A DNA stretch of 64,000 nucleotides from Dehalococcoidia bacterium (GTDB lineage: Bacteria > Chloroflexota > Dehalococcoidia > Lucifugimonadales > UBA3495), in contig DPHC01000002.1 of assembly GCA_003523055.1 (NCBI GenBank), positions 392,933-456,932 of the forward strand, in the 5' to 3' direction. Every line of letters begins with the position of its first letter. The stretch's first letter is position 1. The notes below the pieces were generated by a model that was not told the DNA's origin, ran no database searches, and was given only the letters and a program-made list of their open reading frames with translations. The position numbers were made by a program, and so were the translations under genes. Shown here piece after piece: positions 11,744 through 40,929 of this stretch.

Positions 11744-12856
11744 TTATTTATTCTCAGATATTTGAAGTCTTGCAATTACTTCAGCGACTTTTTTGGCAGG
11801 GGCGGTAATATGTCTATAAATAACATATCCTACCACTCCTAATCCTACTATTGACATGATACTTAGTACCCACCACGGGAATCCATAAAAAACACACACT
11901 GCAGAAACTAAAACGGAATAAAATGATAATGGAACCATCACTTTCCAAGCAAAGGCCATTAATTGGTCAATTCTCAATCTAGGCAAAGATCCTCGAATCC
12001 AAAATATAACCAAAATAACTATATATACTTTCAGAAGGAGCCATACTATTCCAGGTAATATAGGGCCGGCCCATCCACCTAAAAACAGTAAAACTGTTAG
12101 AGTCGCTATCGCAAACGTGTTTATATATTCTGACAAGAAAAACACTGCCCAATGAGCTCCACTATATTCTACAAACGGGCCCCCAACTATTTCTGATTCC
12201 GCAAAGTAAATGTCAAAAGGAGTTCTCCCAACTTCAGCCAATCCAGCAACAAAAAACACAACTAGAGCTAAAGGGTGAATTAATGCAAATGGTACCGGAT
12301 GTTGTAAATTAACAATCTCTATTAAGTTAAATGTTTGAGTCAATATGGCTATTGAAACTAAAATCATTATCAAAGGTATTTCATAACTTATCAGCTGCGC
12401 AGCTGCTCTCAATCCACCTATGACACCATATTTATTAGCAGATCCCCACCCTGCTAATACTAATCCTAAAATTCCTAAAACTCCCACAGCACCTATATAA
12501 AACAATCCCATGTTTTCTAAATTTTCAACTACAATATCAGGTGTGAATGGAATTGTGACCCATAGCATAAAAGAAGATATAACTACTATAATAGGCGCCA
12601 TCCAAAAAATAACACGTTCTGATTCATTAGGAATGATATCTTCTTTCAAAACTAATTTCACAGCATCTGCTATAGGTTGCAGTAATCCAAACGGACCAGT
12701 CCTAGTAGGGCCAAGTCGTAGTTGTAGCCTACCTAACGCTTTGCGTTCTAACCACACGAGAGATAAAACGATCACCGCTAGAAACGAAAACAATATGAGC
12801 AGATCCATCAGTCTGGTAATTCCATATTGAACAGTAAACATTGATAATAAGTTCAT
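11744..12856 (-). CDS. nuoH: NADH-quinone oxidoreductase subunit H
   Basis: 370 aa polytopic protein containing RLQLRLGPTRTGPFGLLQPIADAVKL and EVGRTPFD, both typical of NuoH/ND1. Its ATG overlaps the nuoD TGA (ATGA). Confidence 0.92.
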   Translation of the reverse strand: MNLLSMFTVQYGITRLMDLLILFSFLAVIVLSLVWLERKALGRLQLRLGPTRTGPFGLLQPIADAVKLVLKEDIIPNESERVIFWMAPIIVVISSFMLWVTIPFTPDIVVENLENMGLFYIGAVGVLGILGLVLAGWGSANKYGVIGGLRAAAQLISYEIPLIMILVSIAILTQTFNLIEIVNLQHPVPFALIHPLALVVFFVAGLAEVGRTPFDIYFAESEIVGGPFVEYSGAHWAVFFLSEYINTFAIATLTVLLFLGGWAGPILPGIVWLLLKVYIVILVIFWIRGSLPRLRIDQLMAFAWKVMVPLSFYSVLVSAVCVFYGFPWWVLSIMSIVGLGVVGYVIYRHITAPAKKVAEVIARLQISENK

Positions 12857-20867: not shown

Positions 20868-21566
20868 ATGGCAAAATATTTCGATTTGCACATACATACT
20901 ACAAAAGGTAGCAGTGACAGTAATTTAACTCCAGAAGATTTAATTCTGGAAGCTTCCAGAATTGGATTAAAAGGACTCTGTATAACGGAGCACAGCGGCC
21001 CGTGGGACAGACATGAGTTCAATAAATTTGCAGAATTGCATAATGTCGTACTTATTAGAGGCATGGAAGTTGATACAAACTACGGTCATATGCTGGCGTT
21101 TGGACTAGACAAATATGAATCTGGATTTAACAACGCTGCAACCCTTAGTAAGGCAGTGAATGCGCAAGGAGGCTTCCTCATAACAGCACACCCATTCAGA
21201 GGCATATTTAGCCCTCCTAGTCGAGGACGACCGTTTCTATATAGATCTACAACAGATGTGATACCAACCGATCCTAAAGAAGCTTCTCTCCACGAAGTAT
21301 TTAAATTAGTAAATGCAGTAGAAGCAGGAAATGGCGGCACAGCTGATGATGAAAATGAATTCGCTTTAAAGGTTTCATCTTTACTGAATCTCCCTTCTTC
21401 TGGTGGCAGCGATGCACATTCAACTCATGGCATAGGTAATTTTGTTACGGAGTTTGAAACTGAAATTTTAAATGAAGAACAATTTTTAAAGGCTTTAAAA
21501 ACAGGCTCCTTCAGGCCAGTGTCTGGTCTAAGAACAGGAAATCCTAAACCTTTTAATCAATGTTGA
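20868..21566 (+). CDS. PHP-domain metal-dependent phosphoesterase
   Basis: 232 aa. N-terminal FDLHIHTTKGSSDS, later ITEHS and GGSDAHS histidine motifs of the PHP fold. Confidence 0.8.
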   Translation: MAKYFDLHIHTTKGSSDSNLTPEDLILEASRIGLKGLCITEHSGPWDRHEFNKFAELHNVVLIRGMEVDTNYGHMLAFGLDKYESGFNNAATLSKAVNAQGGFLITAHPFRGIFSPPSRGRPFLYRSTTDVIPTDPKEASLHEVFKLVNAVEAGNGGTADDENEFALKVSSLLNLPSSGGSDAHSTHGIGNFVTEFETEILNEEQFLKALKTGSFRPVSGLRTGNPKPFNQC

Positions 21567-26467: not shown

Positions 26468-27694
26468 TTATTCGTTCATATATTGAACTACCAAATCTAT
26501 TTCATCTTGTTTGGTTAACACTGAACATGATAATTTACTTTCAGTCAATAATTCCAAAAAGAAAGATATATGGTTTTTGGGAACTCCCAAGTTGATCAAA
26601 TCGCTGGGCATTAAATCCAATACGGTGTTATCAGTATACAACAGGTATTTATCTAAATTATCAGAAAGTGCCTGATTATTACATGTATTACGATATATAA
26701 CAATGGATTCCCTCGAAATGTTTTTCAATATTCTATATATAGGCACTATAGTTTTACAATGTACGTTGCTCACTAAAAGATTAGGCTTAGCTCGTTCTAA
26801 TTCAATAACCTCATTCAATGTATTTAGGAGAGATTTATCGAACTTAAACAAGCTCGTGAAACTCTGATAATCGGACATATCAAACACCAATAAAAATGAA
26901 GCCCATGCAGTATGCAAATCATTCAGGTTCAAATTTAGTTCACGTGGTTTCAAACTGGATTTTAATCCTAATACTCTGTATTCTAAAAGCATATTAATAC
27001 ACTTTTCTATATTGATTTCAGTGAATATTAAATTCAATTCATGTGTTAACCGATCTTTACTAATGGTATTAATCACGTTGTTTGAAATAGCTTCTTCTAA
27101 AAATAATAACGTCGAATCTTCTATTCCAAAATCAAATCTAGCTGCATATTTTATTAATCTGAAAATCCTTGTTGGGTCATCAATGAAGCTTTTGCTATGC
27201 AAAACCCTGATGGATTCACTATATATGTCATCAATTCCTCCTGTTGGGTCAATTATTTGATGTGGACTGTTCAATGGTATAGCTAACGCATTGATGGAAA
27301 AATCTCTTCGTTTTAAATCTTCGTCAATGTTACTTAAGGTAATAGATGGTAATGAACCGGGTTTAGGATACGTTTCTGATCTAGCTGAAACAAGATCAAT
27401 TTCAAGGTTATTCAGAAATAATGTAGCTGTTAAAAATCGTTCATGATACTTAGCCGGAATACCTAACGTGTCATTAATAGTTTTCGCCAATGTTATAGCG
27501 TTTCCATTCACAGAGATGTCAAGGTCTTTAATATTTTTTCCTAATATCAAATCCCTAACTGTGCCACCTACGATGAATAGTTCATAACCCAATATTTGAG
27601 AAGAATTAGCAATTTCTTGCAGAATATTACCAATATTAGAACCCCACATATCACTTACTAATGATATTGGATTATATATATGATTATTTTCCAT
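26468..27694 (-). CDS. Class II tRNA nucleotidyltransferase / poly(A) polymerase family protein (CCA-, CC- or A-adding), no HD domain
   Basis: 408 aa. Head-domain motifs GGTVRDLILGKNIKDLD and RRDFSINALA. Confidence 0.75.
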   Translation of the reverse strand: MENNHIYNPISLVSDMWGSNIGNILQEIANSSQILGYELFIVGGTVRDLILGKNIKDLDISVNGNAITLAKTINDTLGIPAKYHERFLTATLFLNNLEIDLVSARSETYPKPGSLPSITLSNIDEDLKRRDFSINALAIPLNSPHQIIDPTGGIDDIYSESIRVLHSKSFIDDPTRIFRLIKYAARFDFGIEDSTLLFLEEAISNNVINTISKDRLTHELNLIFTEINIEKCINMLLEYRVLGLKSSLKPRELNLNLNDLHTAWASFLLVFDMSDYQSFTSLFKFDKSLLNTLNEVIELERAKPNLLVSNVHCKTIVPIYRILKNISRESIVIYRNTCNNQALSDNLDKYLLYTDNTVLDLMPSDLINLGVPKNHISFFLELLTESKLSCSVLTKQDEIDLVVQYMNE

Positions 27695-27788: not shown

Positions 27789-27820
27789 CATAATTGACTT
27801 GTTTTCTAAATGGAGGGCAA

Positions 27821-28459
27821 ATGAATAAAAACCAAAAGAATTATAATTTCTCCATATATTTCGATTTTCGTTGACCGTTTGTATATAACGTAGCTGTATG
27901 GCTTACGCAAGTTAAAAATACTTTAGATGCGGAAATAAATATTGACTGGAAACCTTTTTCTTTGGCTCAAGCCAATAACCCCGACAACTTTAAATATTGG
28001 GAACACCCCGATGTATTAGCAGGATCAGATAAAACATTATTAGCGCATCAAGCAGGATTAGCGATAAAAAAGCAAGGCAATCAGATATTCGACTCATTTT
28101 TGATGATTTTATTGAAAAAGAGGCATGAAAGCAAACAAGATTTAACTGATGTTGCGGTAATAGAGTCAGCAGTAATCGAGTCTGGGGCTGACTTCACTAA
28201 ATACAAAGAAGAGGTATCCAATCCAGATCTACTAAAAGAAATTGGCATCAGCCATGAATTTGCTACAGAAGAATTAGGAGCATTTGGAGTTCCAACTTTT
28301 TATTTCGAATCTGGACAATCCACATTCTTAAAAATGTTTGTACCACCTGAAGATGAAAGTGCTACTATGTTCAAATCGCTGATAGAAGTCATGGGATCTT
28401 TCAACTATGTTGGTGAAATGAAACGTCCTCAACCACCATGGCCTCTAGGCATCATATAA
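27821..28459 (+). CDS. DsbA-like thioredoxin-fold protein with an in-frame TGA (27872..27874) at the active-site Cys position; candidate selenoprotein (212 aa if TGA = Sec)
   Basis: The ORF track gives only 27962..28459 (TTG start), which lacks the N-terminal strand and active site. The same frame upstream reads ATG(27821) NKNQKNYNFSIYFDFR-TGA-PFVYNVAVWLTQVKNTLDAEINIDWKPFSLAQANNP. GGAGGG lies 3 nt before the ATG. FDFx[C]Pxx[YW] is the DsbA-like active-site pattern, and the cis-Pro loop GVPTFYF is present downstream. Confidence 0.6.
27889..27907 (+). promoter_or_regulatory. Candidate SECIS-like hairpin downstream of the DsbA-like TGA
   Basis: CGUAGC-UGUAUG-GCU(U)ACG: a 6-bp stem with one bulged U. 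The apical loop starts about 20 nt after the UGA and has G at loop position 2. Short and unvalidated. Confidence 0.3.
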
Positions 28460-28472
28460 AGTTGAGCTAACA

Positions 28473-29195
28473 GTGAATACAGAAGAAATCACCAAATTAC
28501 AAAGCCTGCTGAAAGTAGAGTTCACAAACGCTGGTATTTTAGTGCAGGCACTAACTCATAGGTCTTATTTGAATGAACAACCTAATAAAGATTTGCCTTC
28601 ATATGAACGACTGGAATTTCTCGGAGATTCATTATTGAGTGAAATAATATCTAAGGAATTATATAAGAAGTATCCAAATTATTTAGAGGGTGCCCTGACT
28701 AAAATAAGATCCAGTTTAGTTTCAGGGGATTCACTTGCAAAAATAGGTGCAAAGCTGGGGTTAGATAAATACATAATAACTGGTAAGGGAGAATATCTGT
28801 CAGAAGGACCTCAGAAAAAATCGATTCTTGCTGCTGTGTTTGAATCTATTACTGCAGCCATATATTTAGATCAAGGCTATATACCAATGCGTGATTTCGT
28901 TCTGAGACATTTAAGGCAACCACTAGGCCAATTCACATTGGGTAATAACCAGATATCTGATCCTAAGTCTCAATTACAAGAATTATCACAGAAACTCTAC
29001 AACGATTTGCCTCAGTACAAAGTTTTAGGGCGTGAAGGACCTGATCACAAACCGATATTCAAAGTTTCTGTTGCTATCGGTAATCGTTCATTAGCAATAG
29101 AAGTTGGGAATTCCAAATCTGAAGCAGAAACTAAAGTAGCACAAGTAGCTTTAGATATCTTATTATCAACAAATAGTAACAGTGTAAAATTATAA
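28473..29195 (+). CDS. rnc: Ribonuclease III
   Basis: 240 aa with a GTG start. Signature ERLEFLGDSLL and a C-terminal dsRBD (PIFKVSVAIG...SKSEAE). Confidence 0.92.
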   Translation: MNTEEITKLQSLLKVEFTNAGILVQALTHRSYLNEQPNKDLPSYERLEFLGDSLLSEIISKELYKKYPNYLEGALTKIRSSLVSGDSLAKIGAKLGLDKYIITGKGEYLSEGPQKKSILAAVFESITAAIYLDQGYIPMRDFVLRHLRQPLGQFTLGNNQISDPKSQLQELSQKLYNDLPQYKVLGREGPDHKPIFKVSVAIGNRSLAIEVGNSKSEAETKVAQVALDILLSTNSNSVKL

Positions 29196-29202
29196 ATCAA
29201 AT

Positions 29203-30141
29203 ATGTTCAACATTTTCAAGAAAAATAACACACCTGAGAATCCAGACAATTATAAAAATATCATAAATAAAAAACAGAATTGGTTAAGTAAATTACCAAT
29301 TATATTTTCCAAAAATAAATTGACTGAGCAAGATTGGGAAGAATTAGAAGAGATATTGATTTCTTCTGATGCCGGATATTCTATGTCCCAGAAAATCATT
29401 GATTTGATTAGGAAAGAAATCCAAACTACATCCACCAATAATGTCCCATATTTAGAAACACTTCGTGAAGTCTTAATAACCCAGTTGAAATATCCTGCTC
29501 CAGAAAATGAAACCATAATCAAAACGCCATATGTCATACTTGTAGTAGGCATCAACGGAGTCGGTAAAACAACAAGTATAGCCAAATTAGCATCTTACTT
29601 TAAACAATCAGGGAAATCAGTATTGCTTAGCGCTGGAGATACTTTCAGAGCCGCTGCAGCTGAACAATTAGAATATTGGGCTGATAAGATAGGAGTAGAC
29701 ATAGTAAAGCAACCCCAAGGGTCAGATCCTGGATCAGTTGTATTTGACTCTTACCAAGCAGCCAAAGCTAGAAATATCGACATTTTATTAATAGATACTG
29801 CAGGCAGAATGAACAATAAATCGAACTTGATGGAAGAATTAACTAAAATAAAAAGAATTCTAACAAAGAATGATTCTGATGCTCCGCATGAAGTGATTTT
29901 AATTCTAGATGCTACTACAGGCTTGAATGGATTAGAGCAAGCTAGATCCTTCAACGAAGCAGTTCAATGCACCGGAGTGTTCTTAACCAAATTAGATGGT
30001 ACTTCTAAAGGTGGGATAGTATTAGCTGTAAAAGATCAACTAAATATACCAATACTATTCATAGGCACAGGAGAAACAATGGCAGATATTGCATACTTTG
30101 AACCCGAAGAATTTGTAGATGCCATGTTGGAGATAGAATAA
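29203..30141 (+). CDS. ftsY: Signal recognition particle receptor FtsY
   Basis: 312 aa. GTPase motifs GINGVGKTT, DTAGR and TKLDGT. Confidence 0.93.
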   Translation: MFNIFKKNNTPENPDNYKNIINKKQNWLSKLPIIFSKNKLTEQDWEELEEILISSDAGYSMSQKIIDLIRKEIQTTSTNNVPYLETLREVLITQLKYPAPENETIIKTPYVILVVGINGVGKTTSIAKLASYFKQSGKSVLLSAGDTFRAAAAEQLEYWADKIGVDIVKQPQGSDPGSVVFDSYQAAKARNIDILLIDTAGRMNNKSNLMEELTKIKRILTKNDSDAPHEVILILDATTGLNGLEQARSFNEAVQCTGVFLTKLDGTSKGGIVLAVKDQLNIPILFIGTGETMADIAYFEPEEFVDAMLEIE

Positions 30142-30175
30142 AATCATGGCAAATATTACCCAATGGTAAGTTGAA

Positions 30176-32536
30176 TTGAAAGACATTATAACTTGGATTT
30201 TATTAATCCAAACTATAGGGCTTATATTTTTCCCGGTTTGCCATGCATTATTCAACAAGTTACCAGACAAAGGGTACTCAATATCAAAAATATTGTCTTT
30301 GATATTTCTAACATATCTAGCATGGTTAATTAACTCGATCCAATGGATTGGTTTTTCTCAGATATCTTTAATCTCGTTATTAATCATATTAGTCATTACT
30401 CAATTATTATTCATAAATAAATTGCATTTCAGAAAGTCTTGGGATTGGATAAAATCGAATCTATATTTTATATGTATTGTAGAGATGATATTCTCTGCAT
30501 CTTTTTTGTTATGTTGTTTTTTCATTTCTCAAAACCCAAACATCCAATTTACTGAACAGCCTATGGATTTTATGATATTAAACTCTTTACTAACTTCTCA
30601 ACACTTCCCTCCAACGGACTTATGGTTCAGTAATTCTAATCTGAACTATTATTATTTCGGCCATCTTCTAATAGCAACCATATCAAAAATAGCAACTACT
30701 CCCGCATCAATAAGCTATAATTTGGGTTTATCATTAATCTGTGGCATTGTAACTATTGGATTTTACGGATTAACTTATAATGCCTTACAACTTGCAAAAA
30801 CCAGCGTAGTGAAGTGTAGAATTTATTCCTTATTAGCACCTGTGATTTTATTGGGATTGGGAAATCAGGTAGGGCTATTAGAATTACTACGGTCTTTACA
30901 TTTATATACTCCAATTATGTACAATTGGATAGGAATACCATCGTTATCTATTATATCTAGTTCTCCCTCCAGATTATTGCCAACAATTGATGGATGGTGG
31001 TGGAATGCAACCAGAGTAATAAATACCATAGACATCAACGGTAAGAGCTTAGATTATACAATCACTGAATTTCCGTTATTTAGTCTTGTAATCCGAGATT
31101 TACACTCCCATCTATTATCTTTACCAATCATAGTAATAGGATTATTTTTGAGCTTACAAATCTTGCAGAATACTCCATTTAAAGCAAAATACTTGAATCG
31201 CTTCAATATATTGGCTTTAATACTTACCTCAATTGTTATTTCTGTATCTTTTATGACAAATCCTTGGAATTTCCCCGTTTTATTAATATCTCTATTCGGA
31301 GCATATTTTTTGTCATATTCCTTATCAAACCCAGATACAGTCCTAAGGAATATCATTTCATCCATAGTATCTATATCTATTTTAATAGTATTATCTATGA
31401 TACTAACATTACCATTTTTTCTACATTATCAAAGTAATCACAACACTATAGGGTTAGTAACAACCATCAACACTAGATATGCACATATGTTTTTAATAAA
31501 CGGTTTGTGGATTATGATTTCGTTACCATTTATCATTTTCCATATTTTTTTAATCCAAAAGCACAATATTAAAAAATTAGAAGTGCAACAATTATTTATA
31601 CTATTATTGTGTTTGATACCGTACCTAATATGGATTATAGCGATTTTGATAAGCAACGAAATTGTTAACCCTTGGACGGTAATTGTTAACAAAAGTTATT
31701 TAACATTACCTCTATCTACAATCGGTGGATTAACTTTATATATCATAGTCAAACAAACGTCCTGCCAAAGACCCAACTACTTGTTATTGTTCACATTAAG
31801 TTTATTTTTTATTTCCTATATGACACTGGCTGCAACAGAGCTATTCTACATTAAAGATATTTTTGGCAACCGAATGAATACTATGTTTAAATTTTATTAT
31901 CAAGTATGGATTTATTTAGGCATAGGCAGTAGCCTAGTAGTGTTTTCACTCCTCTTAATATTGGAAAAAACGAATATATCTAAACGAAGCATTCTGTTAG
32001 TATGTTCTTTATGTATGTTAACTCTAGGCATTATTGGACCAGCATATTACAGTCTCGCATTACTAGGAACCCATGAATTCATATCATTAAAAGATATGAA
32101 CATAGATGGAACAAGTTTTATTTCATACGAAAATCCTACTGAAATGGCAGCAATAACCTGGTTAACACAACAAAAGCCAGCAAATATAGTTGAAACCTAT
32201 GGAACTGACTATTCTAGTGCTGGAAGGATTTCATCGTTGTCTGGTAACTCTACTATTCTTGCTTGGCCTGGTCATCAAATACAATGGAGAGCAAATCAAA
32301 GCGAAATTTTAAGGCTCACAATGGAAATAAATACCATATATGAATCAACTGACTATGCACTCACTCATGCTCTTATAAAAAAGCATGCGATAAAGTATAT
32401 ATATATAGGCAATCGGGAGCTAAAATCTCATGCTTTAATAAAGTTATCAAAGTTCAATGACTTATACTCATTGGCCTATTCAAATAATGGTATATCAATC
32501 TATGATACCGAAATTTATTATGACAGTTCTCAATAA
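30176..32536 (+). CDS. DUF2298 / Chlor_Arch_YYY (TIGR03662-like) polytopic membrane protein
   Basis: 786 aa and highly hydrophobic. Carries the family-defining YYYxG motif (NLNYYYFGHLL; YYY encoded at 30647..30655). TTG start with an in-frame TAA 6 nt upstream. Confidence 0.8.
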   Translation: MKDIITWILLIQTIGLIFFPVCHALFNKLPDKGYSISKILSLIFLTYLAWLINSIQWIGFSQISLISLLIILVITQLLFINKLHFRKSWDWIKSNLYFICIVEMIFSASFLLCCFFISQNPNIQFTEQPMDFMILNSLLTSQHFPPTDLWFSNSNLNYYYFGHLLIATISKIATTPASISYNLGLSLICGIVTIGFYGLTYNALQLAKTSVVKCRIYSLLAPVILLGLGNQVGLLELLRSLHLYTPIMYNWIGIPSLSIISSSPSRLLPTIDGWWWNATRVINTIDINGKSLDYTITEFPLFSLVIRDLHSHLLSLPIIVIGLFLSLQILQNTPFKAKYLNRFNILALILTSIVISVSFMTNPWNFPVLLISLFGAYFLSYSLSNPDTVLRNIISSIVSISILIVLSMILTLPFFLHYQSNHNTIGLVTTINTRYAHMFLINGLWIMISLPFIIFHIFLIQKHNIKKLEVQQLFILLLCLIPYLIWIIAILISNEIVNPWTVIVNKSYLTLPLSTIGGLTLYIIVKQTSCQRPNYLLLFTLSLFFISYMTLAATELFYIKDIFGNRMNTMFKFYYQVWIYLGIGSSLVVFSLLLILEKTNISKRSILLVCSLCMLTLGIIGPAYYSLALLGTHEFISLKDMNIDGTSFISYENPTEMAAITWLTQQKPANIVETYGTDYSSAGRISSLSGNSTILAWPGHQIQWRANQSEILRLTMEINTIYESTDYALTHALIKKHAIKYIYIGNRELKSHALIKLSKFNDLYSLAYSNNGISIYDTEIYYDSSQ

Positions 32537-35030
32537 TATACAAAACAAAAAAAACCTTTGTTACAACACTCTATTTACTGGGGTAATTTTAACTAGCCTT
32601 TTAACTAAGTTATTTGGATTAGATCTACGAACTATCCATTACGATGAAGCGATCCATTTGATGGCATCATGGAAATTATTCCATGATGGTTTTTTTGAAT
32701 CGTCTGCGTGGATGCATGGTCCATTGCAAATTGAGTTGGTATCACTATTATTCCAGTTCGTTGGAGACACTCTATATAGCGGACGATTGATTTATGCCAT
32801 ATTCGGCTGTGGGTTATGCATACTACCATTATTGTTAGTACCACACATTAACAAGATATCTGCTTTAATAATGAGTGTATTATTAACAGTTTCTCCTTCC
32901 ATGTTATATATGAGTAGATTTGCCAGAAACGATATCATTGTCATGTTCCTGTCGATGTTATTGTTTATTACTCTGTGGAAATATATATTAACTCGAAAAG
33001 AGAGATGGCTAGTCTGCATTGTTGCGATCTTAGCGTTAATATTTTCGACTAAAGAAACAAGTTATTTTTTATTCACTGCCGTAATATTTGGGCTAGTAAT
33101 AGGGTTAATATACTTCTATATCATCACCCGAAGAACTCCTAACTATACCAATGCAACAACAATAAACACTTTATACAAATTATTATTAATGCTAATCACA
33201 TTAACCATACCAATGTTCGGTGCCATAACAGGTATATTCCAACATATGTTTAGAATAGTGATAGTGGCCCCCGAGAATACACCTAATGCCTTAACTGGCT
33301 CCTTAACAAGTGGGCCGCCCTGGATTGACTTCTCATTAATAACTACGAGCCCTCTGGCTTTAATTTCAATCCCAATAATTTTAAGTGCCTTAATCATAGT
33401 TCTACTGGTAGCCAGACCTGCTCAAAATATCATAAAAATTGCATTAGTGGCGTCTTTAGGTTTGACTGTGTTCTATGCCTATTTCAAAGCGATCGGCATG
33501 GTATCTACTGAAACTTGGTATTTACCTATCACATTAAGTTTATTATCTATTTCTTTATCAATCGTATATGTTTCTAGAAGCAACGACAAAGTCTTTAAGA
33601 CAATTCTTTTAAGTAGCGCTTCGCTAATTTTCATTCATGCATTAGTGTTAACGTCCGGGCTCCCAATTTTGCAAACAATAATTGAGATATTATTGCCAGG
33701 CCAACATATTTTTGATCAATATATTTCGTTTAATTCCTTGGTAACTACATGCATAATATTTTTAGCATTCGTATTATCAATAGCTGCAGGTATTTTAAAT
33801 TTTTCTTGGAAATGGATTGTATTTATGTGTATGTTTTATGGCATTATAGCCTTAACATACACAACCTACTTCGCTAATTCACAAGGTTTTTATACAGGAA
33901 TTTGGCAAAGCCTAGGTTACTGGATGAGCCAACAAGAAGTGGCTAGGGGAAACCAACCTTGGTATTACTATATAGTTGGGTTATCCATTTACGAATTCCT
34001 ACCACTAGTATTAGGAGCTATAAGCATAACCTGGGCGATAAAAACTCGAAACGCTTTGGCATTATCCAGTGGCTTTTGGGCTGCTGGGTCTCTAATATTT
34101 TTTACTATCGCATCTGAAAAAATGCCTTGGTTACTAATATACATTGCTCTGCCTTTAATTATCGTATCATCAATATATCTAGGAAGCATAATAGAAGAGT
34201 ATCAACGAAAATCCAAGTCACCAAGTGAAGAATTTCTTTTATGTGCCTGTGTGACCGGCATAATCATATTGATTTTAGCTATGATATATTTATCATTAAG
34301 TTTGCTCATTCTATCTTTAATAGGATTAATAATCGTATGTCTTCTAGTAGCATCTGCTATATTGATCAAATATATCATCCCACATAATTCAAAGGTTATT
34401 TCATTAGTCCCTATAGTGCTGATACTTTTAACCCTTACTGGTATAAATTCGTACCACCTCAATTACAAATACGGAGATGAGCATAAACAATTTATGGTTT
34501 ATGCACAGGGTAGCCATGAAATTGGAACTCACTTACCTACATTAACGGCTATGCTTGATAGTCATATAGAACCTTCAACTATCCTAATGATTGATTATGA
34601 TATCTGGTATCCATTACATTGGTATTTTCGCGATAACGAAAACTCCTCTTCTATTACTTTTAACTGCTTTAAATCTAAAGGAGAACCAGGATGGAATGAA
34701 CAGTGCATCGATTTAAATGAGGGATCATACAGTTCCCATTACCTATTAAGTGAAGACCATCACAATATATACTCTGCTCAGTTAAAAACTTCTTACACTG
34801 TAACTAAAATAGAAAATATTATCTGGTTCCCAGAAGTTTACAGAAGAACTGGAGAGAATAGGGCAAAAGAAAAGCTCTCAGACGAAATAATCAATGATTT
34901 TAATTACTTCAAAACAAATATATTCAATATCACGTTTTGGAGCAACCTCAAAAGGTACCAGTTTAACAAGCAATTAGACTCTGAATGGTTCCAATCACAT
35001 TACTACCATTATGAACGAATATTGCCATAG
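32520..35030 (+). CDS. TIGR03663-like membrane protein (N-terminal PMT/GT39-like region)
   Basis: Polytopic protein. The N-terminal region has the DE dipeptide (IHYDEAIH) and HGP tripeptide (WMHGPLQ) described as invariant for TIGR03663. The ORF track starts at 32457; the ATG at 32520 (MTVLNNIQNKK) reduces the overlap with the upstream gene to 17 nt and is preferred. Confidence 0.75.
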   Translation: MTVLNNIQNKKNLCYNTLFTGVILTSLLTKLFGLDLRTIHYDEAIHLMASWKLFHDGFFESSAWMHGPLQIELVSLLFQFVGDTLYSGRLIYAIFGCGLCILPLLLVPHINKISALIMSVLLTVSPSMLYMSRFARNDIIVMFLSMLLFITLWKYILTRKERWLVCIVAILALIFSTKETSYFLFTAVIFGLVIGLIYFYIITRRTPNYTNATTINTLYKLLLMLITLTIPMFGAITGIFQHMFRIVIVAPENTPNALTGSLTSGPPWIDFSLITTSPLALISIPIILSALIIVLLVARPAQNIIKIALVASLGLTVFYAYFKAIGMVSTETWYLPITLSLLSISLSIVYVSRSNDKVFKTILLSSASLIFIHALVLTSGLPILQTIIEILLPGQHIFDQYISFNSLVTTCIIFLAFVLSIAAGILNFSWKWIVFMCMFYGIIALTYTTYFANSQGFYTGIWQSLGYWMSQQEVARGNQPWYYYIVGLSIYEFLPLVLGAISITWAIKTRNALALSSGFWAAGSLIFFTIASEKMPWLLIYIALPLIIVSSIYLGSIIEEYQRKSKSPSEEFLLCACVTGIIILILAMIYLSLSLLILSLIGLIIVCLLVASAILIKYIIPHNSKVISLVPIVLILLTLTGINSYHLNYKYGDEHKQFMVYAQGSHEIGTHLPTLTAMLDSHIEPSTILMIDYDIWYPLHWYFRDNENSSSITFNCFKSKGEPGWNEQCIDLNEGSYSSHYLLSEDHHNIYSAQLKTSYTVTKIENIIWFPEVYRRTGENRAKEKLSDEIINDFNYFKTNIFNITFWSNLKRYQFNKQLDSEWFQSHYYHYERILP

Positions 35031-35101
35031 TGGTCGATTGAAGGTTTTCAAACGTGAACTACGAGTGTAAAATGATATTATACAATTCTGAGGATTAAAT
35101 T

Positions 35102-35278
35102 ATGGGTAACAAATCAAAAAAAGAAACACGTCGTAACTTCCTTTCAATTTTAGGAATAGGATCTGCTAGTTTAGTAATTGGGGCTAACCCGTTACTGTCA
35201 TGGTTCCGAAAAGAAAGTTCATCTAATTTTACTGATGCAGCAGATTCAATTTTTAAACCTCGCAACCTAAAAAGCTAA
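35102..35278 (+). CDS. 58-aa micro-ORF with a twin-arginine (Tat) signal peptide
   Basis: Manual translation gives MGNKSKKETRRNFLSILGIGSASLVIGANPLLSWFRKESSSNFTDAADSIFKPRNLKS then TAA. TRRNFLS matches the S/T-R-R-x-F-L-K consensus and is followed by a hydrophobic h-region. GAGGA lies 7 nt upstream of the ATG. Its stop abuts the convergent mutL stop. Confidence 0.45.
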   Translation: MGNKSKKETRRNFLSILGIGSASLVIGANPLLSWFRKESSSNFTDAADSIFKPRNLKS

Positions 35279-36985
35279 TCACATAACTCTTCCAAAGGAT
35301 CTGTCCAAAAAATAGTTTTTTAATTCCAGCACAGTCGGCCTACCGTGCGGGCAAGTTCTTGGATTGTCTGTACTTTTTAGCTGTTCAACTAATTCTTCCA
35401 TTTCTCTTAAACTTAGCTTTTGCCCTGCTCTAATTGAACTGTGGCAAGCGATAGTAGCGAGTATTTGATATTGAGGAATACGACCAGAAGGGTTCATCAG
35501 CTGTTCAAGTAAATCAGATATAAAATTTTCACTACTGTCCAATGAAATACCTACAGGAATAGATCTAACTAAAATAGAATTGCCACCGAAATCCTCTACA
35601 ACCATACCTTTGTTTTTTAAATATAGCTTATTAATTGCAAAAAATCCATTTTGAGCATCATTCAAAGGAAGATGTATTGGTTCCAATAGCATTTGAGAAT
35701 TATTTGCTCCAGTAATGGAATTAGAGTTCAATTGATCGAATTTAACCCTTTCATGGGCTGCATGTTGATCGATCAAGTAAATACCTTGGCTGCATTCGGC
35801 AAGGATATAAGTGGTACGGCCTTGCCCTATTACGTGTAGATGGTCTAAAATCTCCCTGAATTGACCATCATTAGGTATAGGGTTATTCTGAGCTGTTATG
35901 TCTCTTAAACCGGAATCCATGTTCAGTTGGCTATATGATTCGTTATTAATGTGTAATGTATTATTCATTCCTTGACTGGATATGGGTGCAACAGATGATA
36001 ATGCAGATATACTACCTCTAACGGCTCGTTGCAATGTAGAGAATATTTTAGACTCATACAAAAATCGAACTTCAGTCTTGGCAGGATGTGCATTCACGTC
36101 TACATCAGAATGTGGAACTATAATATTAATAACCCCAACAGGAAATCTCCGTTCTGGCATTAGTCCATGGTATGCTTCTGTAAAAGCTCTAGCCAATATT
36201 GGATTCTGTATTAACCGGTTATTAACGAAAAATATCATTGACTGACGATTAGAACGATGTAAATGAACTGGAGAAATATATCCTTCAACTACATAATCCT
36301 CCCTACTATAATCCAACAACAGCATTTGGCTAGATATTTCTTTACCCAAGCATGTTATAAGCGTTTCTTGCAAATTATTATTACCCGGACTATTAAATAT
36401 TTGTTTACCATTAATTATCAAAATTAATTTTATCTGCGGATAAGCACAAGCATAGCGTACTATCAAATTCTTGATTTGTAAGTGTTCACTTCTTAAAGAT
36501 TTTTGAAATTTTAGCCTAGCAGGTACATTTTTAAATAATTTTGTAACAATTATCTGAGTTCCTATTTGACAAGGAGTGATTTTAAGGTCTGAAATAACAC
36601 CAAAGTCATTATCAACTAAGTATCCGAATTCTTCATCCTTAACTCTACTAATTAACGAAACATGAGAAATCGATGCTATACTTGGTAGAGCTTCACCTCT
36701 GAACCCTAATGTTGCTATTGAATGCAAATCGGACTCTACAGAAATTTTGCTAGTTGCGTGATGTTCAAACGCTAGAGTCAAATATTTACGTTCGATGCCA
36801 ATGCCATTATCACTAACTTTTATAAAATTTTTCTCTCCATCTTGTATTTCAATAGTAATATGCAAAGAATCAGCATCAATAGAATTTTCAAGCAATTCTT
36901 TTATAACTGATGCAGGGCGTTCTATAACTTCTCCAGCTGCAATTTGTGTTATTAATAAAGGACTTAATTTTTTGATTTCTGACAT
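35279..36985 (-). CDS. mutL: DNA mismatch repair protein MutL
   Basis: 568 aa. GHKL ATPase motifs ELLENSIDA, DNGIGI and GFRGEAL; C-terminal CPHGRP. Confidence 0.93.
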   Translation of the reverse strand: MSEIKKLSPLLITQIAAGEVIERPASVIKELLENSIDADSLHITIEIQDGEKNFIKVSDNGIGIERKYLTLAFEHHATSKISVESDLHSIATLGFRGEALPSIASISHVSLISRVKDEEFGYLVDNDFGVISDLKITPCQIGTQIIVTKLFKNVPARLKFQKSLRSEHLQIKNLIVRYACAYPQIKLILIINGKQIFNSPGNNNLQETLITCLGKEISSQMLLLDYSREDYVVEGYISPVHLHRSNRQSMIFFVNNRLIQNPILARAFTEAYHGLMPERRFPVGVINIIVPHSDVDVNAHPAKTEVRFLYESKIFSTLQRAVRGSISALSSVAPISSQGMNNTLHINNESYSQLNMDSGLRDITAQNNPIPNDGQFREILDHLHVIGQGRTTYILAECSQGIYLIDQHAAHERVKFDQLNSNSITGANNSQMLLEPIHLPLNDAQNGFFAINKLYLKNKGMVVEDFGGNSILVRSIPVGISLDSSENFISDLLEQLMNPSGRIPQYQILATIACHSSIRAGQKLSLREMEELVEQLKSTDNPRTCPHGRPTVLELKNYFLDRSFGRVM

Positions 36986-36987
36986 GA

Positions 36988-37425
36988 CTAAAATAACGGC
37001 AATATGGTGCCCTTCGGTTTATAATGCTTATTGGTTGAAGTTCTTGTTTCAACAATATCACATATAACTTCATAAACATCATTCATAGCATTATCTTTAT
37101 TACGTTCGAAAAAGAAAGGTTGTACCCATAATCCTCCAAAATATGCTACCACTTCAGGATAATCATCTATAACAAAGTCAGGTATGATTGGAATAGCTAG
37201 ATCTTTAAATTTTTGCTCAAAATTATCCTTAGGTTTCTCATAAACATCAGTGACATATTTTTCAAGTTGATGTTCTTCAATTACTTCCCACCGTTTTCCC
37301 ATTCCTGACCATATATATATGTTATGACCGTCGTCTATTATTTTTTGAAAAACTTCTTTCGTCATATATCTAAGAGAGTTATCTAAGCCCAAAATAGTGT
37401 AATCTACATCAAAAAATACATTCAT
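36988..37425 (-). CDS. Small HAD-superfamily-like phosphatase
   Basis: 145 aa. N-terminal FFDVDYTI (DxDxT motif I). Ends 2 nt before the mutL start. Confidence 0.55.
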   Translation of the reverse strand: MNVFFDVDYTILGLDNSLRYMTKEVFQKIIDDGHNIYIWSGMGKRWEVIEEHQLEKYVTDVYEKPKDNFEQKFKDLAIPIIPDFVIDDYPEVVAYFGGLWVQPFFFERNKDNAMNDVYEVICDIVETRTSTNKHYKPKGTILPLF

Positions 37426-37620
37426 GTTTTAATCAATCAACCTTTTATAATTATTTCTTTTAATAACCAGATTCGGCCATTTAAGTTTATCGGATATTGG
37501 TTCACGTAATTCTTAAGTAATTTAACGTCCCTATACTAGGTCCGTAAGTTTTAACAATCAGTATAGCAAAAAGCCAGTTACTTAACACATATGAAGTGTT
37601 ATGTTAAGGAGTAGGTAAAA

Positions 37621-37797
37621 ATGTCAAATAGGTCAACTCATGAAGAACCAATGCCTATATACAAAATTTATTGTAAGCTAGGAGAATTACCTCAGTTAAC
37701 CAATGAACTTGTTGCCTCTTACCAACTTCTTAGTGAGTCTGGATTAATTGAAAAAAACAAGCCTTTTGTAATAGATGCTCTGACCAATGATAATTAA
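37621..37797 (+). CDS. Hypothetical 58-aa protein
   Basis: Manual translation gives MSNRSTHEEPMPIYKIYCKLGELPQLTNELVASYQLLSESGLIEKNKPFVIDALTNDN then TAA. AAGGAG lies 9 nt upstream of the ATG. No recognisable family. Confidence 0.3.
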   Translation: MSNRSTHEEPMPIYKIYCKLGELPQLTNELVASYQLLSESGLIEKNKPFVIDALTNDN

Positions 37798-37966
37798 ATT
37801 ATTCAACATAGAGCAATTAAAGTGGGAATATTTCCTATCAGGAGGAGAAGATCGGCAAAAACGGAGTCTCCCAAGATCGATTTCTATTATAGATATAAGT
37901 AAATGGAAAGAAATGACTCCATCTAACAATGTCAAATTCAATTTTTCAACAAATTGATCTATTCTA

Positions 37967-38305
37967 TTACATCAAATATTTTTTGATATCAGCTCCGGCA
38001 AAAAACTCACCTTCAAAATAAACCATTGGTCGTTTGATCAGCTTCGGTTCTTCAATCATATAATTCATCTTGGATTCAGTAGTCATTTCGTCTAAGACCA
38101 ATTCAAGTTTTTTCACAGAAGGGCTTCTAGTAGCAAATATATAATCTATATCACAATATTTTAATATATCACTCAATTCTAATATAGTTAATTTGTTTTC
38201 AAATATATCTCTCTCAAAAATTTCGTAACCACGTTGCAAAAGCATCTCTTTCGCTTTTTTACAACTGCTTCAACGCTTCCAAGTATATAAATTAGCTGTT
38301 TTCAC
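37967..38305 (-). CDS. ArsC/Spx-family thioredoxin-fold protein with an in-frame TGA (38270..38272) at the first Cys of CxxC; candidate selenoprotein with U-S-S-C (112 aa if TGA = Sec)
   Basis: The ORF track gives only 37967..38245. The same frame upstream reads GTG(38305..38303) KTANLYTWKR-TGA-SSCKKAKE-M. An in-frame TAG sits immediately upstream of the GTG. GGAGGG lies 3 nt before the GTG, and the GTG overlaps the mutS stop (GTGA). The family motif LIKRPMV is present near the C-terminus. Confidence 0.68.
38233..38265 (-). promoter_or_regulatory. Candidate bacterial SECIS hairpin downstream of the ArsC/Spx-like TGA
   Basis: On the mRNA: GUUG-UAA-AAAAGC-[GAAAGAGAU]-GCUUUU-G-CAAC, a 4-bp lower stem, an internal loop, a 6-bp upper stem and a 9-nt loop starting with G. 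It begins 4 nt after the UGA, and the loop begins about 18 nt after it. Confidence 0.45.
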
Positions 38306-40929
38306 CTACCCTCCTTATGCTGTTCATTAATATCTGTTTTTAATTTATGCAATATGTTCATTGCTTCCATTGGAGTCATATTATTCATATCCAAGTCAGA
38401 CAGTTTTTCAGATATACCGTTAAAATCCCATGAAAGTTGGAGTTGATTATTACTTAATCCGTTCTTAGTATGATTATCTACATAAAGATTGTTCTCTTCA
38501 AATTCATACAATAAATCAGATGCTCTTAATAAAATAGATTTTGGCATTCCAGCTAATTTAGCGACATGTATTCCATAACTCTTATCAGAGCTGCCTGATA
38601 TTATCCTACGTAAAAATATTATATCGCCATTTTCTTCAGACACTGCAACATGGTAATTCTTAACTCTAGGTAAATGGCTCGATAACTCCGATAATTCGTG
38701 ATAATGAGTTGCAAATAAAGTCTTGCACCCCAAAGAAGGGTTATTGTGAATATATTCAATAACAGATTGCGCTATGGAAAGCCCATCATATGTGCTAGTA
38801 CCTCTGCCTATTTCATCTAAAATCAGTAGAGATTTGCTAGTGGCATGATTTAATATCGATGCTGTTTCTAGCATTTCTACCATGAATGTTGATTGCCCAG
38901 TGGTCAAATCGTCTTGTAATCCAATTCTTGTAAAAATTCTGTCAACCAAGCAAATATCAGCAGTTGTAGCCGGTACAAAACTACCGATATGGGCCATTAG
39001 TACTATTATAGCTGTTTGCCGTATGTATGTGCTTTTGCCAGCCATGTTAGGTCCCGTTAATACAATGACGTTGGCATCACCATTAGACATATACACATCA
39101 TTAGGTACATAATTCACTAATCCAATCACTTCTTCAACAACAGGATGCCTGCCATTTTTTATAATAATACGACGTTCATCATTAATATCTGGCCTGATAT
39201 AGCTATTATCTAATCCTATTCTCGCAAAAGAACAAATCACATCTATCACACTCAATGATTGGGACAATTGAATTAATTGGTCGTGATTTTCAGAGATTTG
39301 AAAACAAATCTGCCTGTACAAATCATTTTCCAGTAATTCAATTCGTTCTCTAGAGGTTAATATCTCGAGCTCATAGTCCTTTAATTGGGCTGTTATAAAT
39401 CGTTCGGCATTCGTCAAGGTCTGTTTTCTAATATAATCGTCTGGAACTGCAGTTAAATTAGCTCTACTAACTTCTATAAAATATCCAAATACTTGATTAA
39501 ATCCTATTTTTAAATTTTTTATTTCAGTTCTATTTCTTTCAATAAGCTCTAGTTCTGATATGAATGTTTTAGTTTCATTAGCCAAAGTTCGCAAAGAATC
39601 TAGTTCTTGAGAATACCCTGGTAGTATTGTTCTACCTTCCCCTACCTTTCCTTCAACATTTTCGTCTATACCAAAAGTTACAATATTAATAATTTCTTCA
39701 TTAACTTGAATTTGTTTACAAATTTCTAATAACGACTGGTCCGGGAGTTGTTGTATTATTTCGGATAAATCTATGGCCGTAGATAAAGTATTTTTTAGGC
39801 TTAACAAGTCATTCGGAGTGGCTTTATGGTACTTTATCTTACCTGATATACGTTCTATATCTGACACTTTATTCAATAGTTCTTCTACTTTTGTTAGTGC
39901 AAATAAATCATCGGTCAATGACTCTATTCCGTTTTGTCTAAGTATGATTTCTTTTTTTTCTAATAAAGGCTGTCCAATCCATTTTTTCAACAATCTAGCC
40001 CCCATCGGAGTTTTAGTGCGATTTAACGTGGAAAATAAAGTTTTGCTGGATCCAGATAATTTAGCTGTATCAAACAATTCTAAATTAAGCCTAGTTTGAA
40101 CATCTAAATTCATGTACTTATCAATAGAATAAAATTTGGGCTTTAATAAATGATTTTTTGTTGACTGTTGAGTTTCTTGTAAATAAGACAATAATGCTCC
40201 CGATGACTGAACCACTACATCACTAAGAGATATATTTTTTAAATCCTCTCCAGTTAATTCAAGGTTTTTTATCAACACTCCATTAAAATCTAGCGAATAA
40301 TACGAGTCGTCTAATATTGTAATAAAATTATGTCGGGATGGTCCACTCTGTAGTAAATCAATATCCGATACATCTGTGATCTTGGAAATATCAGATTTCA
40401 TACTTCCAGAAATCAAAATTTCAGAAGGATTCAATCTCGCAAGTTCCATCTTACATTGATCCAAAGATAGTTTCGTAACAAAAAATTCTCCAGTAGATAT
40501 ATCCACCGTTGATAATCCTATTGCACTATCATCCTTAAACAGAGAAACTAAATAATTATTGGATTGAACATCTAAAAAATCATCTTCAAAAACAGTTCCT
40601 GGAGTAACTACTCGGACCACACCTCGTTCTACTAGGTCTTTATTCTTAGTAGCAGCAGACAATTGTTCACAAATAGCCACTTTATACCCGATTTTAACCA
40701 ATCTACTCAAATACGTATCACAGGCATGAACAGGGATGCCAGCGAGTGGAACTACTACGTTTTTACCTAAGCTCTTTCGTGTTAATGCTATGTCTAATTC
40801 TTCAGAAATAATTTTTGCATCATCATCAAAGCATTCATAAAAGTCGCCCATACGAAAAAATAATATCGAATCTTCATAAGATTTCTTGATATTAATATAT
40901 TGTTCTCTAATTGGAGTCACGTAGTTCAC
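38302..40929 (-). CDS. mutS: DNA mismatch repair protein MutS
   Basis: 875 aa. N-terminal mismatch-binding region (FFRMGDFYE), Walker A GPNMAGKST and DEIGRGTSTYDG. Confidence 0.95.
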   Translation of the reverse strand: MNYVTPIREQYINIKKSYEDSILFFRMGDFYECFDDDAKIISEELDIALTRKSLGKNVVVPLAGIPVHACDTYLSRLVKIGYKVAICEQLSAATKNKDLVERGVVRVVTPGTVFEDDFLDVQSNNYLVSLFKDDSAIGLSTVDISTGEFFVTKLSLDQCKMELARLNPSEILISGSMKSDISKITDVSDIDLLQSGPSRHNFITILDDSYYSLDFNGVLIKNLELTGEDLKNISLSDVVVQSSGALLSYLQETQQSTKNHLLKPKFYSIDKYMNLDVQTRLNLELFDTAKLSGSSKTLFSTLNRTKTPMGARLLKKWIGQPLLEKKEIILRQNGIESLTDDLFALTKVEELLNKVSDIERISGKIKYHKATPNDLLSLKNTLSTAIDLSEIIQQLPDQSLLEICKQIQVNEEIINIVTFGIDENVEGKVGEGRTILPGYSQELDSLRTLANETKTFISELELIERNRTEIKNLKIGFNQVFGYFIEVSRANLTAVPDDYIRKQTLTNAERFITAQLKDYELEILTSRERIELLENDLYRQICFQISENHDQLIQLSQSLSVIDVICSFARIGLDNSYIRPDINDERRIIIKNGRHPVVEEVIGLVNYVPNDVYMSNGDANVIVLTGPNMAGKSTYIRQTAIIVLMAHIGSFVPATTADICLVDRIFTRIGLQDDLTTGQSTFMVEMLETASILNHATSKSLLILDEIGRGTSTYDGLSIAQSVIEYIHNNPSLGCKTLFATHYHELSELSSHLPRVKNYHVAVSEENGDIIFLRRIISGSSDKSYGIHVAKLAGMPKSILLRASDLLYEFEENNLYVDNHTKNGLSNNQLQLSWDFNGISEKLSDLDMNNMTPMEAMNILHKLKTDINEQHKEGR

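What the first reader, a model, noticed from the sequence alone, without database searches (positions are those of the whole stretch)
27821..38305. Two independent redox-site UGAs within about 10 kb while TGA remains a common stop: the Sec-decoding trait is missed by standard ORF calling
Both truncated thioredoxin-fold ORFs are repaired by reading one TGA as sense, and in both cases the TGA lands on the nucleophilic Cys column. At least seven other genes in the window terminate with TGA at family-normal lengths: nuoD, speE, speH, mutL, mutS, the PHP gene and the CinA/NadD fusion. Two hits in 64 kb suggest a selenoproteome rich in small thiol oxidoreductases, with other members probably mis-annotated as short or absent ORFs. 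No sel gene or tRNA-Sec lies in this window.
Basis: inference. Interest (0 to 1): 0.55.

Follow-up and report, generated by a model that had tools for sequence, protein, structure and literature searches.

The report
Two unannotated selenoprotein genes, marine Dehalococcoidia
Two small redox-protein genes in this marine Dehalococcoidia genome each use one in-frame TGA to encode selenocysteine at the active site, so gene callers truncate them; this is real, but both protein families and selenium use in this bacterial class were already described.

Summary
A DsbA-like gene (27821-28459, +) has TGA at codon 18. An ArsC/Spx-like gene (38305-37967, -) has TGA at codon 12. In both, the TGA aligns with the nucleophilic Cys of Cys-containing homologues (C-P-F-V and C-x-x-C).

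The same codon is TGA in 80 of 80 Dehalococcoidia/Chloroflexota species genomes for the DsbA-like gene. It is TGA in 77 of 80 marine metagenome loci for the ArsC-like gene. Each TGA is followed, 14-15 nt downstream, by a 7-bp hairpin supported by compensatory base changes, as expected for a bacterial SECIS element.

TGA is otherwise an ordinary stop. Eight of 53 genes end in TGA at full family length, and there are no other in-frame TGAs in about 19,300 codons. Five independent assemblies keep both TGAs, so this is not an assembly artefact. NCBI, JGI, ENA and Tara all truncate both genes.

Not shown: selA, selB, selD or tRNA-Sec. None lies in the window or its 10-kb flanks, and the rest of the genome could not be reached.

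Novelty is low. The 2008 GOS selenoproteome lists "DsbA 3 (UxxV)" and "Arsenate reductase 2 (UxxC)". BSepDB (2026) ranks two Dehalococcoidia MAGs, both carrying this DsbA-like TGA, among the ten most selenoprotein-rich bacteria.

The parts
27821..28459 (+). DsbA-like selenoprotein gene, 212 codons including Sec. The active site is U-P-F-V and the protein contains no Cys.
   Evidence: Translation; Pfam DSBA 46.5 bits; homologue alignment; nearest structure DR2335, 7dk9.
27812..27816 (+). Shine-Dalgarno-like GGAGG, 4 nt upstream of the ATG.
   Evidence: Sequence.
27872..27874 (+). In-frame TGA (codon 18), read as Sec.
   Evidence: Aligns with Cys of P0007, P0011, P0013 and P0025. TGA in 80/80 species loci.
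27889..27907 (+). SECIS-like hairpin 1: CGUAGCU-GUAU-GGC(U)UACG. It has 7 bp with a bulged U and starts 14 nt after the UGA.
   Evidence: 87% of cells paired; UA<->CG 45/29 and GC<->AU 53/25; 0 of 500 shuffles reach this. The single-sequence fold is weak, -5.5 kcal/mol.
37967..38305 (-). ArsC/Spx-like selenoprotein gene, 112 codons including Sec. The active site is U-S-S-C.
   Evidence: Translation; Pfam ArsC 51.5 bits; TIGR01617 69.9 bits; Spx alignment.
38310..38316 (-). Shine-Dalgarno AAGGAGG upstream of the GTG start.
   Evidence: Sequence.
38270..38272 (-). In-frame TGA (codon 12), read as Sec.
   Evidence: Aligns with the first Cys of C-x-x-C in full-length homologues. TGA in 77/80 metagenome loci, TGC in 3.
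38236..38254 (-). SECIS-like hairpin 2: GCGAAAG-AGAUG-CUUUUGC. It has 7 bp and a 5-nt loop, and starts 15 nt after the UGA.
   Evidence: 97.4% of cells paired; 64 double-change cells against 15.6 in shuffles; 0 of 500 shuffles reach this. RNAalifold finds the same helix on its own. The hairpin is absent from the three Cys forms.
38302..38304 (-). mutS TGA stop, overlapping the GTG start of the ArsC-like gene (GTGA). It lies 47 nt from hairpin 2 and in another frame, so it is used as a stop.
   Evidence: Sequence; MutS matches TIGR01070 to position 839/840.
12853..12855 (-). nuoD TGA stop. This is one example of the eight ordinary TGA stops; the other stop codons are at 15509-15511, 19401-19403, 20344-20346, 21564-21566, 35279-35281, 38302-38304 and 46868-46870.
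   Evidence: Stop codon table; models matched to their ends; no SECIS-like hairpin at the right spacing, except an A/U-rich one after mutL where read-through would add only 3 codons.

Best explanation
Both genes are genuine selenoprotein genes of a low-GC marine Dehalococcoidia (Chloroflexota) bacterium.

During translation, a hairpin 14-15 nt downstream of each UGA acts as a bacterial SECIS element. It recruits SelB carrying Sec-tRNA(Sec), so that UGA is read as selenocysteine. The eight UGAs that end other genes lack such an element and terminate normally.

Sec replaces the nucleophilic Cys at the N-terminus of helix alpha-1 of a thioredoxin fold.

- In the cytoplasmic DsbA-like protein (relatives: DR2335, Rv2466c, GST-kappa), Sec is the only redox residue (U-P-F-V, no Cys anywhere). 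It must therefore work as a one-selenol enzyme resolved by an external thiol.
- In the ArsC/Spx-like protein, Sec forms a U-x-x-C selenenylsulfide couple.

Shown: the ORF structure, the Sec/Cys pairing, TGA conservation, hairpin covariation and the normal TGA stops. Inferred: SelB/tRNA-Sec action, actual selenium insertion and the enzymology.
For: - Sec/Cys pairs at the catalytic column are seen for both genes.
- An AF2 model of a 53%-identical Cys homologue (pLDDT 87) puts that Cys between strand 1 and helix 1. The best fold match is DR2335, whose depositors mutated the aligned Cys (C24S).
- The TGA is kept in 80/80 species genomes within a conserved cca<->dsbA-like-rnc-ftsY neighbourhood, and in 77/80 marine loci for the ArsC-like gene.
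- Variation upstream and downstream of the TGA is mainly at third codon positions, so both sides are translated in one frame.
- Both hairpins covary: 0 of 500 shuffles reach the observed values, and the slide controls are far lower.
- In hairpin 2 the loop G (column 42, a third codon position) is invariant while the amino acid varies between E, A and V.
- The Cys forms of the ArsC-like gene lack the hairpin.
- TGA is a normal stop in 8 genes, and TGG supplies 242 Trp codons.
- Five independent assemblies at 99.93-99.98% identity keep both TGAs.
- Literature: the same motifs are listed as marine selenoprotein families (PMC2398784), and Dehalococcoidia genomes carrying this gene are listed among Sec-pathway-positive, selenoprotein-rich bacteria (PMC13326102).
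Against: - No selA, selB, selD or tRNA-Sec was seen for this organism. None lies in the window, in 10 kb on each side, or in 0.89 Mb of fetched related DNA. That is only a small part of the genome.
- Hairpin 1 is thermodynamically weak in this AT-rich genome (-5.5 kcal/mol, z +1.1), and RNAalifold did not predict it unaided.
- The two Cys forms of the DsbA-like gene still keep 5-6 of its 7 pairs, so that control is not clean.
- There is no Rfam SECIS match.
- There is no protein-level evidence.
Confidence: 0.9

Rival explanations
1. The UGAs are translated, but not as Sec. A suppressor or Sec-like tRNA would insert Cys or another residue without the canonical SelA/SelB system.
For: The Sec machinery was not observed. 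The sequence evidence shows only that the codon is translated and that an RNA hairpin is conserved.
Against: The geometry (UGA, then a 14-15 nt spacer, then a short hairpin with a conserved loop G) is that of SelB-dependent bacterial SECIS. Orthologous TGAs occur in Dehalococcoidia genomes that BSepDB includes only if the Sec pathway is present. A general suppressor would also read through the eight TGA stops.
Confidence: 0.04
2. The TGAs are true stops. The genes would be pseudogenes, or the proteins would start at a downstream codon (the 165-aa and 92-aa products as annotated).
For: This is what all public annotations assume.
Against: The truncated products would lack strand 1 and the active site. 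The short upstream peptide is conserved in frame with synonymous changes across 80 and 77 loci. Each true start has a Shine-Dalgarno sequence. A nonsense mutation would not be fixed at the catalytic codon across a bacterial class.
Confidence: 0.03
3. The organism uses a reassigned code in which TGA is Trp or Gly (table 4 or 25).
For: Some public gene calls on short contigs give full-length proteins with W at this position (P0002, P0005).
Against: Those calls are artefacts, because the DNA has TGA. Eight genes end in TGA at family-normal length. There are only two in-frame TGAs in about 19,300 codons, and TGG is used 242 times.
Confidence: 0.01
4. The TGAs are sequencing errors, or the contig is a chimeric assembly at these loci.
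For: None found.
Against: Five assemblies from different samples are colinear over up to 20.7 kb at 99.93-99.98% identity and carry both TGAs. More than 23 contigs carry the neighbouring gene. GC content is uniform at 0.31-0.39.
Confidence: 0.01

Closest known systems
GOS marine selenoprotein family 'DsbA 3' (pfam01323, UxxV; Zhang & Gladyshev 2008, PMC2398784)
   Same: Same Pfam domain, same unusual U-x-x-V motif and same marine origin.
   Different: GOS counted 5 Sec and 72 Cys forms, whereas the 80 nearest species genomes here are all Sec forms (a similarity-biased sample).
GOS marine selenoprotein family 'Arsenate reductase 2' (cd03032 Spx-type, UxxC; PMC2398784)
   Same: ArsC/Spx-type domain, U-x-x-C motif and marine origin.
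   Different: The sequences were not compared directly. The window protein scores below NCBI's own ArsC (seleno)protein model NF041106 (21.5 bits against a cut-off of 85), so it is a different subfamily from that one.
DR2335, DsbA-like protein of Deinococcus radiodurans (PDB 7dk9; C24S mutant 7dka)
   Same: Best sequence match (E 3e-11) and best fold match (TM 0.75-0.77). It has a single active-site Cys in YFDF-L-C-P-Y-A, aligned to the Sec.
   Different: Cys rather than Sec, and about 30% identity. No paper on its function turned up in the library (one search, on its PDB code 7DK9).
Spx, redox-sensing RNA-polymerase-binding regulator of Firmicutes (PDB 1z3e, 7f75)
   Same: Best solved relative (E about 7e-11). 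Spx C10-x-x-C13 aligns with U12-x-x-C15.
   Different: The window protein is 112 aa against 131. It scores just below the TIGR01617 cut-off (69.9 against 75.05) and far below the Spx equivalog models. RNA-polymerase binding was not tested.
Bacterial SECIS elements (E. coli fdhF type; bSECISearch model)
   Same: A hairpin inside the coding sequence just 3' of the UGA, with a fixed short spacer and a conserved G in the apical loop (the model is as described in PMC2398784).
   Different: The stems are short (7 bp) and, in this AT-rich genome, weak. There is no Rfam match, and SelB binding was not tested.
Selenoprotein-rich Dehalococcoidia in BSepDB (UBA1141 with 49 genes, 10f4566d with 46; PMC13326102)
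   Same: Same class, and both carry the orthologous DsbA-like TGA (L016, L078).
   Different: The window's organism is a different, low-GC (about 35%) lineage at about 55% protein identity. Its own selenoproteome size and Sec machinery are unknown.

Membership tests
Bacterial selenoprotein gene (Sec-UGA recoding) | An in-frame UGA inside an ORF that is conserved and translated on both sides. | tested here: met
Bacterial selenoprotein gene (Sec-UGA recoding) | The UGA aligns with a catalytic Cys in homologues (Sec/Cys pair). | tested here: met
Bacterial selenoprotein gene (Sec-UGA recoding) | A SECIS hairpin immediately downstream of the UGA, conserved in structure. | tested here: met
   Covariation; spacers of 14 and 15 nt. 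Hairpin 1 is weaker and was not found by RNAalifold alone.
Bacterial selenoprotein gene (Sec-UGA recoding) | selA, selB, selD and tRNA-Sec in the same genome. | not testable with these tools
   Absent from the window and its 10-kb flanks. The rest of the genome could not be fetched.
Bacterial selenoprotein gene (Sec-UGA recoding) | Selenium actually incorporated into the protein. | not testable with these tools
   Needs mass spectrometry or 75Se labelling.
DsbA family (PF01323) | Profile match above the curated cut-off, and a thioredoxin fold with a helical insert. | tested here: met
   46.5 bits against 25.6; AF2 model and PDB fold matches.
DsbA family (PF01323) | A C-x-x-C dithiol active site. 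| tested here: not met
   The motif is U-P-F-V (C-P-F-V in Cys forms), and the protein has no other Cys. It works like a monothiol DsbA-like enzyme, not like classical DsbA.
ArsC/Spx superfamily (PF03960) | Profile match above the curated cut-off, with an N-terminal redox Cys. | tested here: met
   51.5 bits against 24; U-x-x-C aligned to the Spx C-x-x-C.
Spx/MgsR regulators (TIGR01617) and arsenate reductase ArsC (TIGR00014) | Score at or above the curated cut-off. | tested here: not met
   69.9 against 75.05 for TIGR01617, and 27 against 106 for TIGR00014.
NCBI 'ArsC family (seleno)protein' NF041106 | Score at or above the curated cut-off. | tested here: not met
   21.5 against 85.
Reassigned genetic code (table 4 or 25) | TGA common inside genes and not used as a stop. 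| tested here: not met

The most novel reading that the evidence does not exclude
The DsbA-like protein, whose only redox residue is Sec, may be a vertically inherited core gene that is fixed as Sec across pelagic Dehalococcoidia/SAR202. It is TGA in 80 of 80 species genomes, always beside rnc and ftsY. If so, selenium would be an obligate micronutrient for this abundant ocean clade, and single-genome SECIS thresholds would systematically under-count selenoproteins in its AT-rich lineages. A still more novel reading that is not excluded is non-canonical decoding without SelA/SelB. I rate that at about 3%.
Probability: 0.2. Interest if true: 0.45.

Novelty: new member of a known kind. Interest (0 to 1): 0.22.

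Why it matters
The practical value is in annotation. Two active-site-bearing proteins of a widespread ocean bacterium are stored in NCBI, JGI, ENA and Tara as truncated 'hypothetical' fragments. On short contigs they appear as spurious Trp-containing proteins called under code 4. The same error affects the orthologues in at least 80 species genomes.

The finding also flags this low-GC Dehalococcoidia lineage as a selenium user, which bears on trace-element ecology of the ocean. It does not change what is known about Sec decoding. The families, the mechanism and the class-level trait are all published.

Tried and rejected
- **Rfam.** Neither the gathering scan nor permissive scans of both hairpins gave a SECIS family, only noise.
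- **Single-sequence folding.** It did not separate the hairpins from shuffled sequence (z +1.1 and -1.4). On the DsbA alignment RNAalifold chose a different, invariant stem spanning the UGA, with no covariation. I rely on the named-structure counts instead.
- **Search for Sec machinery.** I ran ARAGORN on the window and on all 171 fetched loci. I also ran tblastn with E. coli SelA, SelB and SelD against 0.89 Mb, and two look-ups at the window edges. Nothing was found. The tools do not allow walking further along the 581-kb contig.
- **Third selenoprotein gene in the window.** A stop-to-stop scan and a redox-motif scan gave no credible candidate. All other hits lie antisense or out of frame within known genes.
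- **Cys-form control for hairpin 1.** It was inconclusive: 5-6 of 7 pairs persist.
- **Not used.** The third word-index protein search was left unused, because no query could be aimed at this organism's sel genes.
Full report
**What is there**

The window is a low-GC (0.31-0.39) stretch of a marine Dehalococcoidia MAG. The source names are 'MAG TPA: Dehalococcoidia bacterium', locus tags DEZ08_, on a contig of 581,219 bp.

On the + strand an ORF opens at ATG 27821 behind a GGAGG. It meets TGA at 27872-27874 and continues in frame to TAA 28457-28459. Read through, it is a 212-aa DsbA-like protein (Pfam PF01323, 46.5 bits against a cut-off of 25.6).

On the - strand an ORF opens at GTG 38305 behind AAGGAGG, with a TAG immediately upstream in frame. 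It meets TGA at 38272-38270 and runs to TAA 37969-37967. Read through, it is a 112-aa ArsC/Spx-like protein (PF03960, 51.5 bits against 24; TIGR01617, 69.9 bits).

Public gene calls truncate both genes. ENA, JGI and Tara give 165 aa, and NCBI gives 174 aa as 'hypothetical protein' HCG90717.1. The second gene is called as 92 aa, HCG90724.1.

**The TGAs fall on the nucleophile column**

Full-length Cys homologues of gene 1 read FYDFR-C-PFVYN against the window's YFDFR-U-PFVYN. An AlphaFold model of one of them (P0013, 53% identical, mean pLDDT 87) places that Cys at residue 14, between strand 2-10 and helix 15-29. This is the canonical thioredoxin-fold nucleophile position. The best sequence and fold match is Deinococcus DR2335 (7dk9), whose depositors also solved the C24S mutant of the aligned Cys. 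The next fold matches are Rv2466c, GST-kappa, HCCA isomerase and FrnE.

The window protein contains no Cys at all, so Sec is its only redox residue.

For gene 2, full-length homologues found by an exhaustive HMMER search have C-[STN]-x-C aligned with U-S-S-C. Spx C10-x-x-C13 aligns with U12-x-x-C15.

**Conservation**

A scan of one genome per GTDB species returned 80 Dehalococcoidia/Chloroflexota loci. All 80 have TGA at this codon, with YYDFR before it and PFVYNA after it in the same frame.

The gene sits in a conserved neighbourhood. rnc is present in 80 of 80 loci and lies immediately downstream in 78. ftsY is present in 79, and a divergent CCA/poly(A)-polymerase gene in 73. This indicates long vertical inheritance of the TGA.

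A metagenome scan with the ArsC-like alignment returned 80 marine loci. Of these, 77 have TGA and 3 have TGC at the codon.

Many 'homologues' in protein databases begin just after the motif, which means they are truncated in the same way. The few full-length database entries with Trp at the site are code-4 gene calls on short contigs, because the DNA has TGA.

**SECIS-like hairpins**

Gene 2 has GCGAAAG-AGAUG-CUUUUGC at 38254-38236, starting 15 nt after the UGA.

- On 78 sequences (65 distinct), 97.4% of cells pair and four pairs show compensatory changes.
- There are 64 double-change cells against 15.6 in shuffles, and 0 of 500 shuffles reach the observed values.
- The slide controls reach at most 60% paired.
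- RNAalifold finds the same helix unaided.
- The loop G at column 42 is a third codon position. It is invariant although the encoded residue varies between E, A and V.
- The three Cys forms have only 0-3 of the 7 pairs.

Gene 1 has CGUAGCU-GUAU-GGC(U)UACG at 27889-27907, starting 14 nt after the UGA.

- On 81 sequences, 87% of cells pair.
- Covariation is UA<->CG (45/29) and GC<->AU (53/25).
- There are 59 double-change cells against 20.9 in shuffles, and 0 of 500 shuffles reach the observed values.
- The slide controls reach at most 63% paired.
- Between the window and its nearest relative, U-A and A-U swap at synonymous sites (GTA...CTT against GTT...CTA).

There are caveats for hairpin 1. 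Sub-clades shift the bulge, which gives about 20 unpaired cells at three pairs. The window's own hairpin is weak (-5.5 kcal/mol). RNAalifold did not pick it. The two Cys forms still keep 5-6 of its 7 pairs.

The two hairpins share the same geometry, which is that of bacterial SECIS elements. Rfam has no matching model.

**TGA is otherwise a stop**

Of 53 long ORFs, 36 end in TAA, 9 in TAG and 8 in TGA. The TGA-terminated genes match their models to the end:

| Gene | Model positions matched |
|---|---|
| NuoD | 366/366 |
| SpeE | 286/287 |
| AdoMetDC | 112/112 |
| MutL | 549/559 |
| MutS | 839/840 |
| REG-2-like HAD | 203/203 |
| CinA/cytidylyltransferase fusion | 132/133 |
| PHP_C | 54/56 |

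There are 242 TGG codons and only two in-frame TGAs in about 19,300 codons. This excludes genetic codes 4 and 25.

None of the eight stops has a comparable hairpin at the right spacing. The exception is an A/U-rich hairpin after mutL, where read-through would add only three codons.

The mutS stop overlaps the ArsC-like start (GTGA). It lies 47 nt from hairpin 2 and in another frame.

**Not an artefact**

Five assemblies from different samples are colinear with the window over 11.6-20.7 kb at 99.93-99.98% identity. All five carry both TGAs.

**What is missing**

No tRNA-Sec, selA, selB or selD lies in the window or in 10 kb on either side. None lies in the other fetched loci either, which total 0.89 Mb. 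The remainder of the genome could not be reached, so the trans-acting half of the mechanism is inferred.

Indirect support comes from BSepDB, which includes only species that have the Sec pathway. It lists Dehalococcoidia UBA1141 (49 selenoprotein genes) and 10f4566d (46) in its top ten. Both carry the orthologous DsbA-like TGA (L016, L078).

No third candidate selenoprotein gene exists in the window.

**Comparison with what is known**

- Zhang et al. 2006 already list DsbA-like and ArsC-like among 25 bacterial selenoprotein families, and note Sec use in Chloroflexi.
- The 2008 GOS selenoproteome lists 'DsbA 3, pfam01323, UxxV' and 'Arsenate reductase 2, cd03032, UxxC'. These are the same domains and motifs, from ocean water.
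- BSepDB's abstract states that bacterial selenoprotein genes are frequently misannotated.

The finding is therefore a correct detection of two unannotated members of known families in a class already known to use Sec.

Two modest points go beyond the literature I could read. First, the Sec form of the single-selenol DsbA-like gene appears fixed across the 80 most similar species genomes, within a housekeeping neighbourhood. Second, in this AT-rich lineage the SECIS hairpins are too weak to detect without comparative data.

**Verdict**

The explanation is Sec recoding through SECIS hairpins, at confidence about 0.9. Novelty is low (new members of a known kind) and interest is about 0.2.

Noticed in passing
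window 38302-38305 (- strand): The mutS TGA stop and the GTG start of the ArsC-like selenoprotein gene overlap by 4 nt (GTGA), which suggests translational coupling. mutS lies directly upstream of the ArsC-like gene in 12 of 80 related metagenome loci.
   Followed up: partly
window 35102-35278 (+): A 58-aa ORF with a twin-arginine-like signal (KETRRNFLSILGIGSASLVIG) and almost no mature part, ending in TAA. TIGR01409 scores 16.5 bits against a cut-off of 16.7. It is called as a gene in all assemblies.
   Followed up: partly
window 27821-28459: The DsbA-like protein has no cysteine at all, so Sec is its only redox-active residue (U-P-F-V). Cys-form homologues are likewise C-P-F-V.
   Followed up: partly
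P0002, P0005, P0182, P0183; locus L174: Public protein sets hold 'full-length' versions of the DsbA-like protein with Trp at the Sec position, all from contigs of 2 kb or less. The DNA of the one checked has TGA. The gene caller evidently switched to code 4 on short contigs.
   Followed up: yes
window 30176-35030 (+) and window 1-~2290 (-): Two tandem giant membrane proteins (786 aa DUF2298; 857 aa, weak PMT_2) overlap by 80 nt. In one strain (L003) the second is split into 213 + 613 aa. A 1445-aa fused PMT_2+DUF2298 gene runs off the left end of the window.
   Followed up: no
window 57764-58690 (-); L168 5302-6233: The FAA-hydrolase gene is intact here and in L169 but is called as two pieces (220 + 99 aa) in assembly L168. 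This is a strain-level disruption or a calling difference.
   Followed up: no
window 27869-27890 (columns 13-17 with 30-34 of A2): RNAalifold's own choice on the DsbA alignment is a 5-bp stem that encloses the UGA (CGUUG...YAAYG). It is fully conserved but shows no covariation, so its significance is unknown.
   Followed up: no
window 26468-27694 (-) and 62449-63912 (+): There are two paralogous CCA-adding/poly(A)-polymerase family genes (PF01743) within 36 kb. The first lies divergently upstream of the DsbA-like selenoprotein gene in 73 of 80 species.
   Followed up: no
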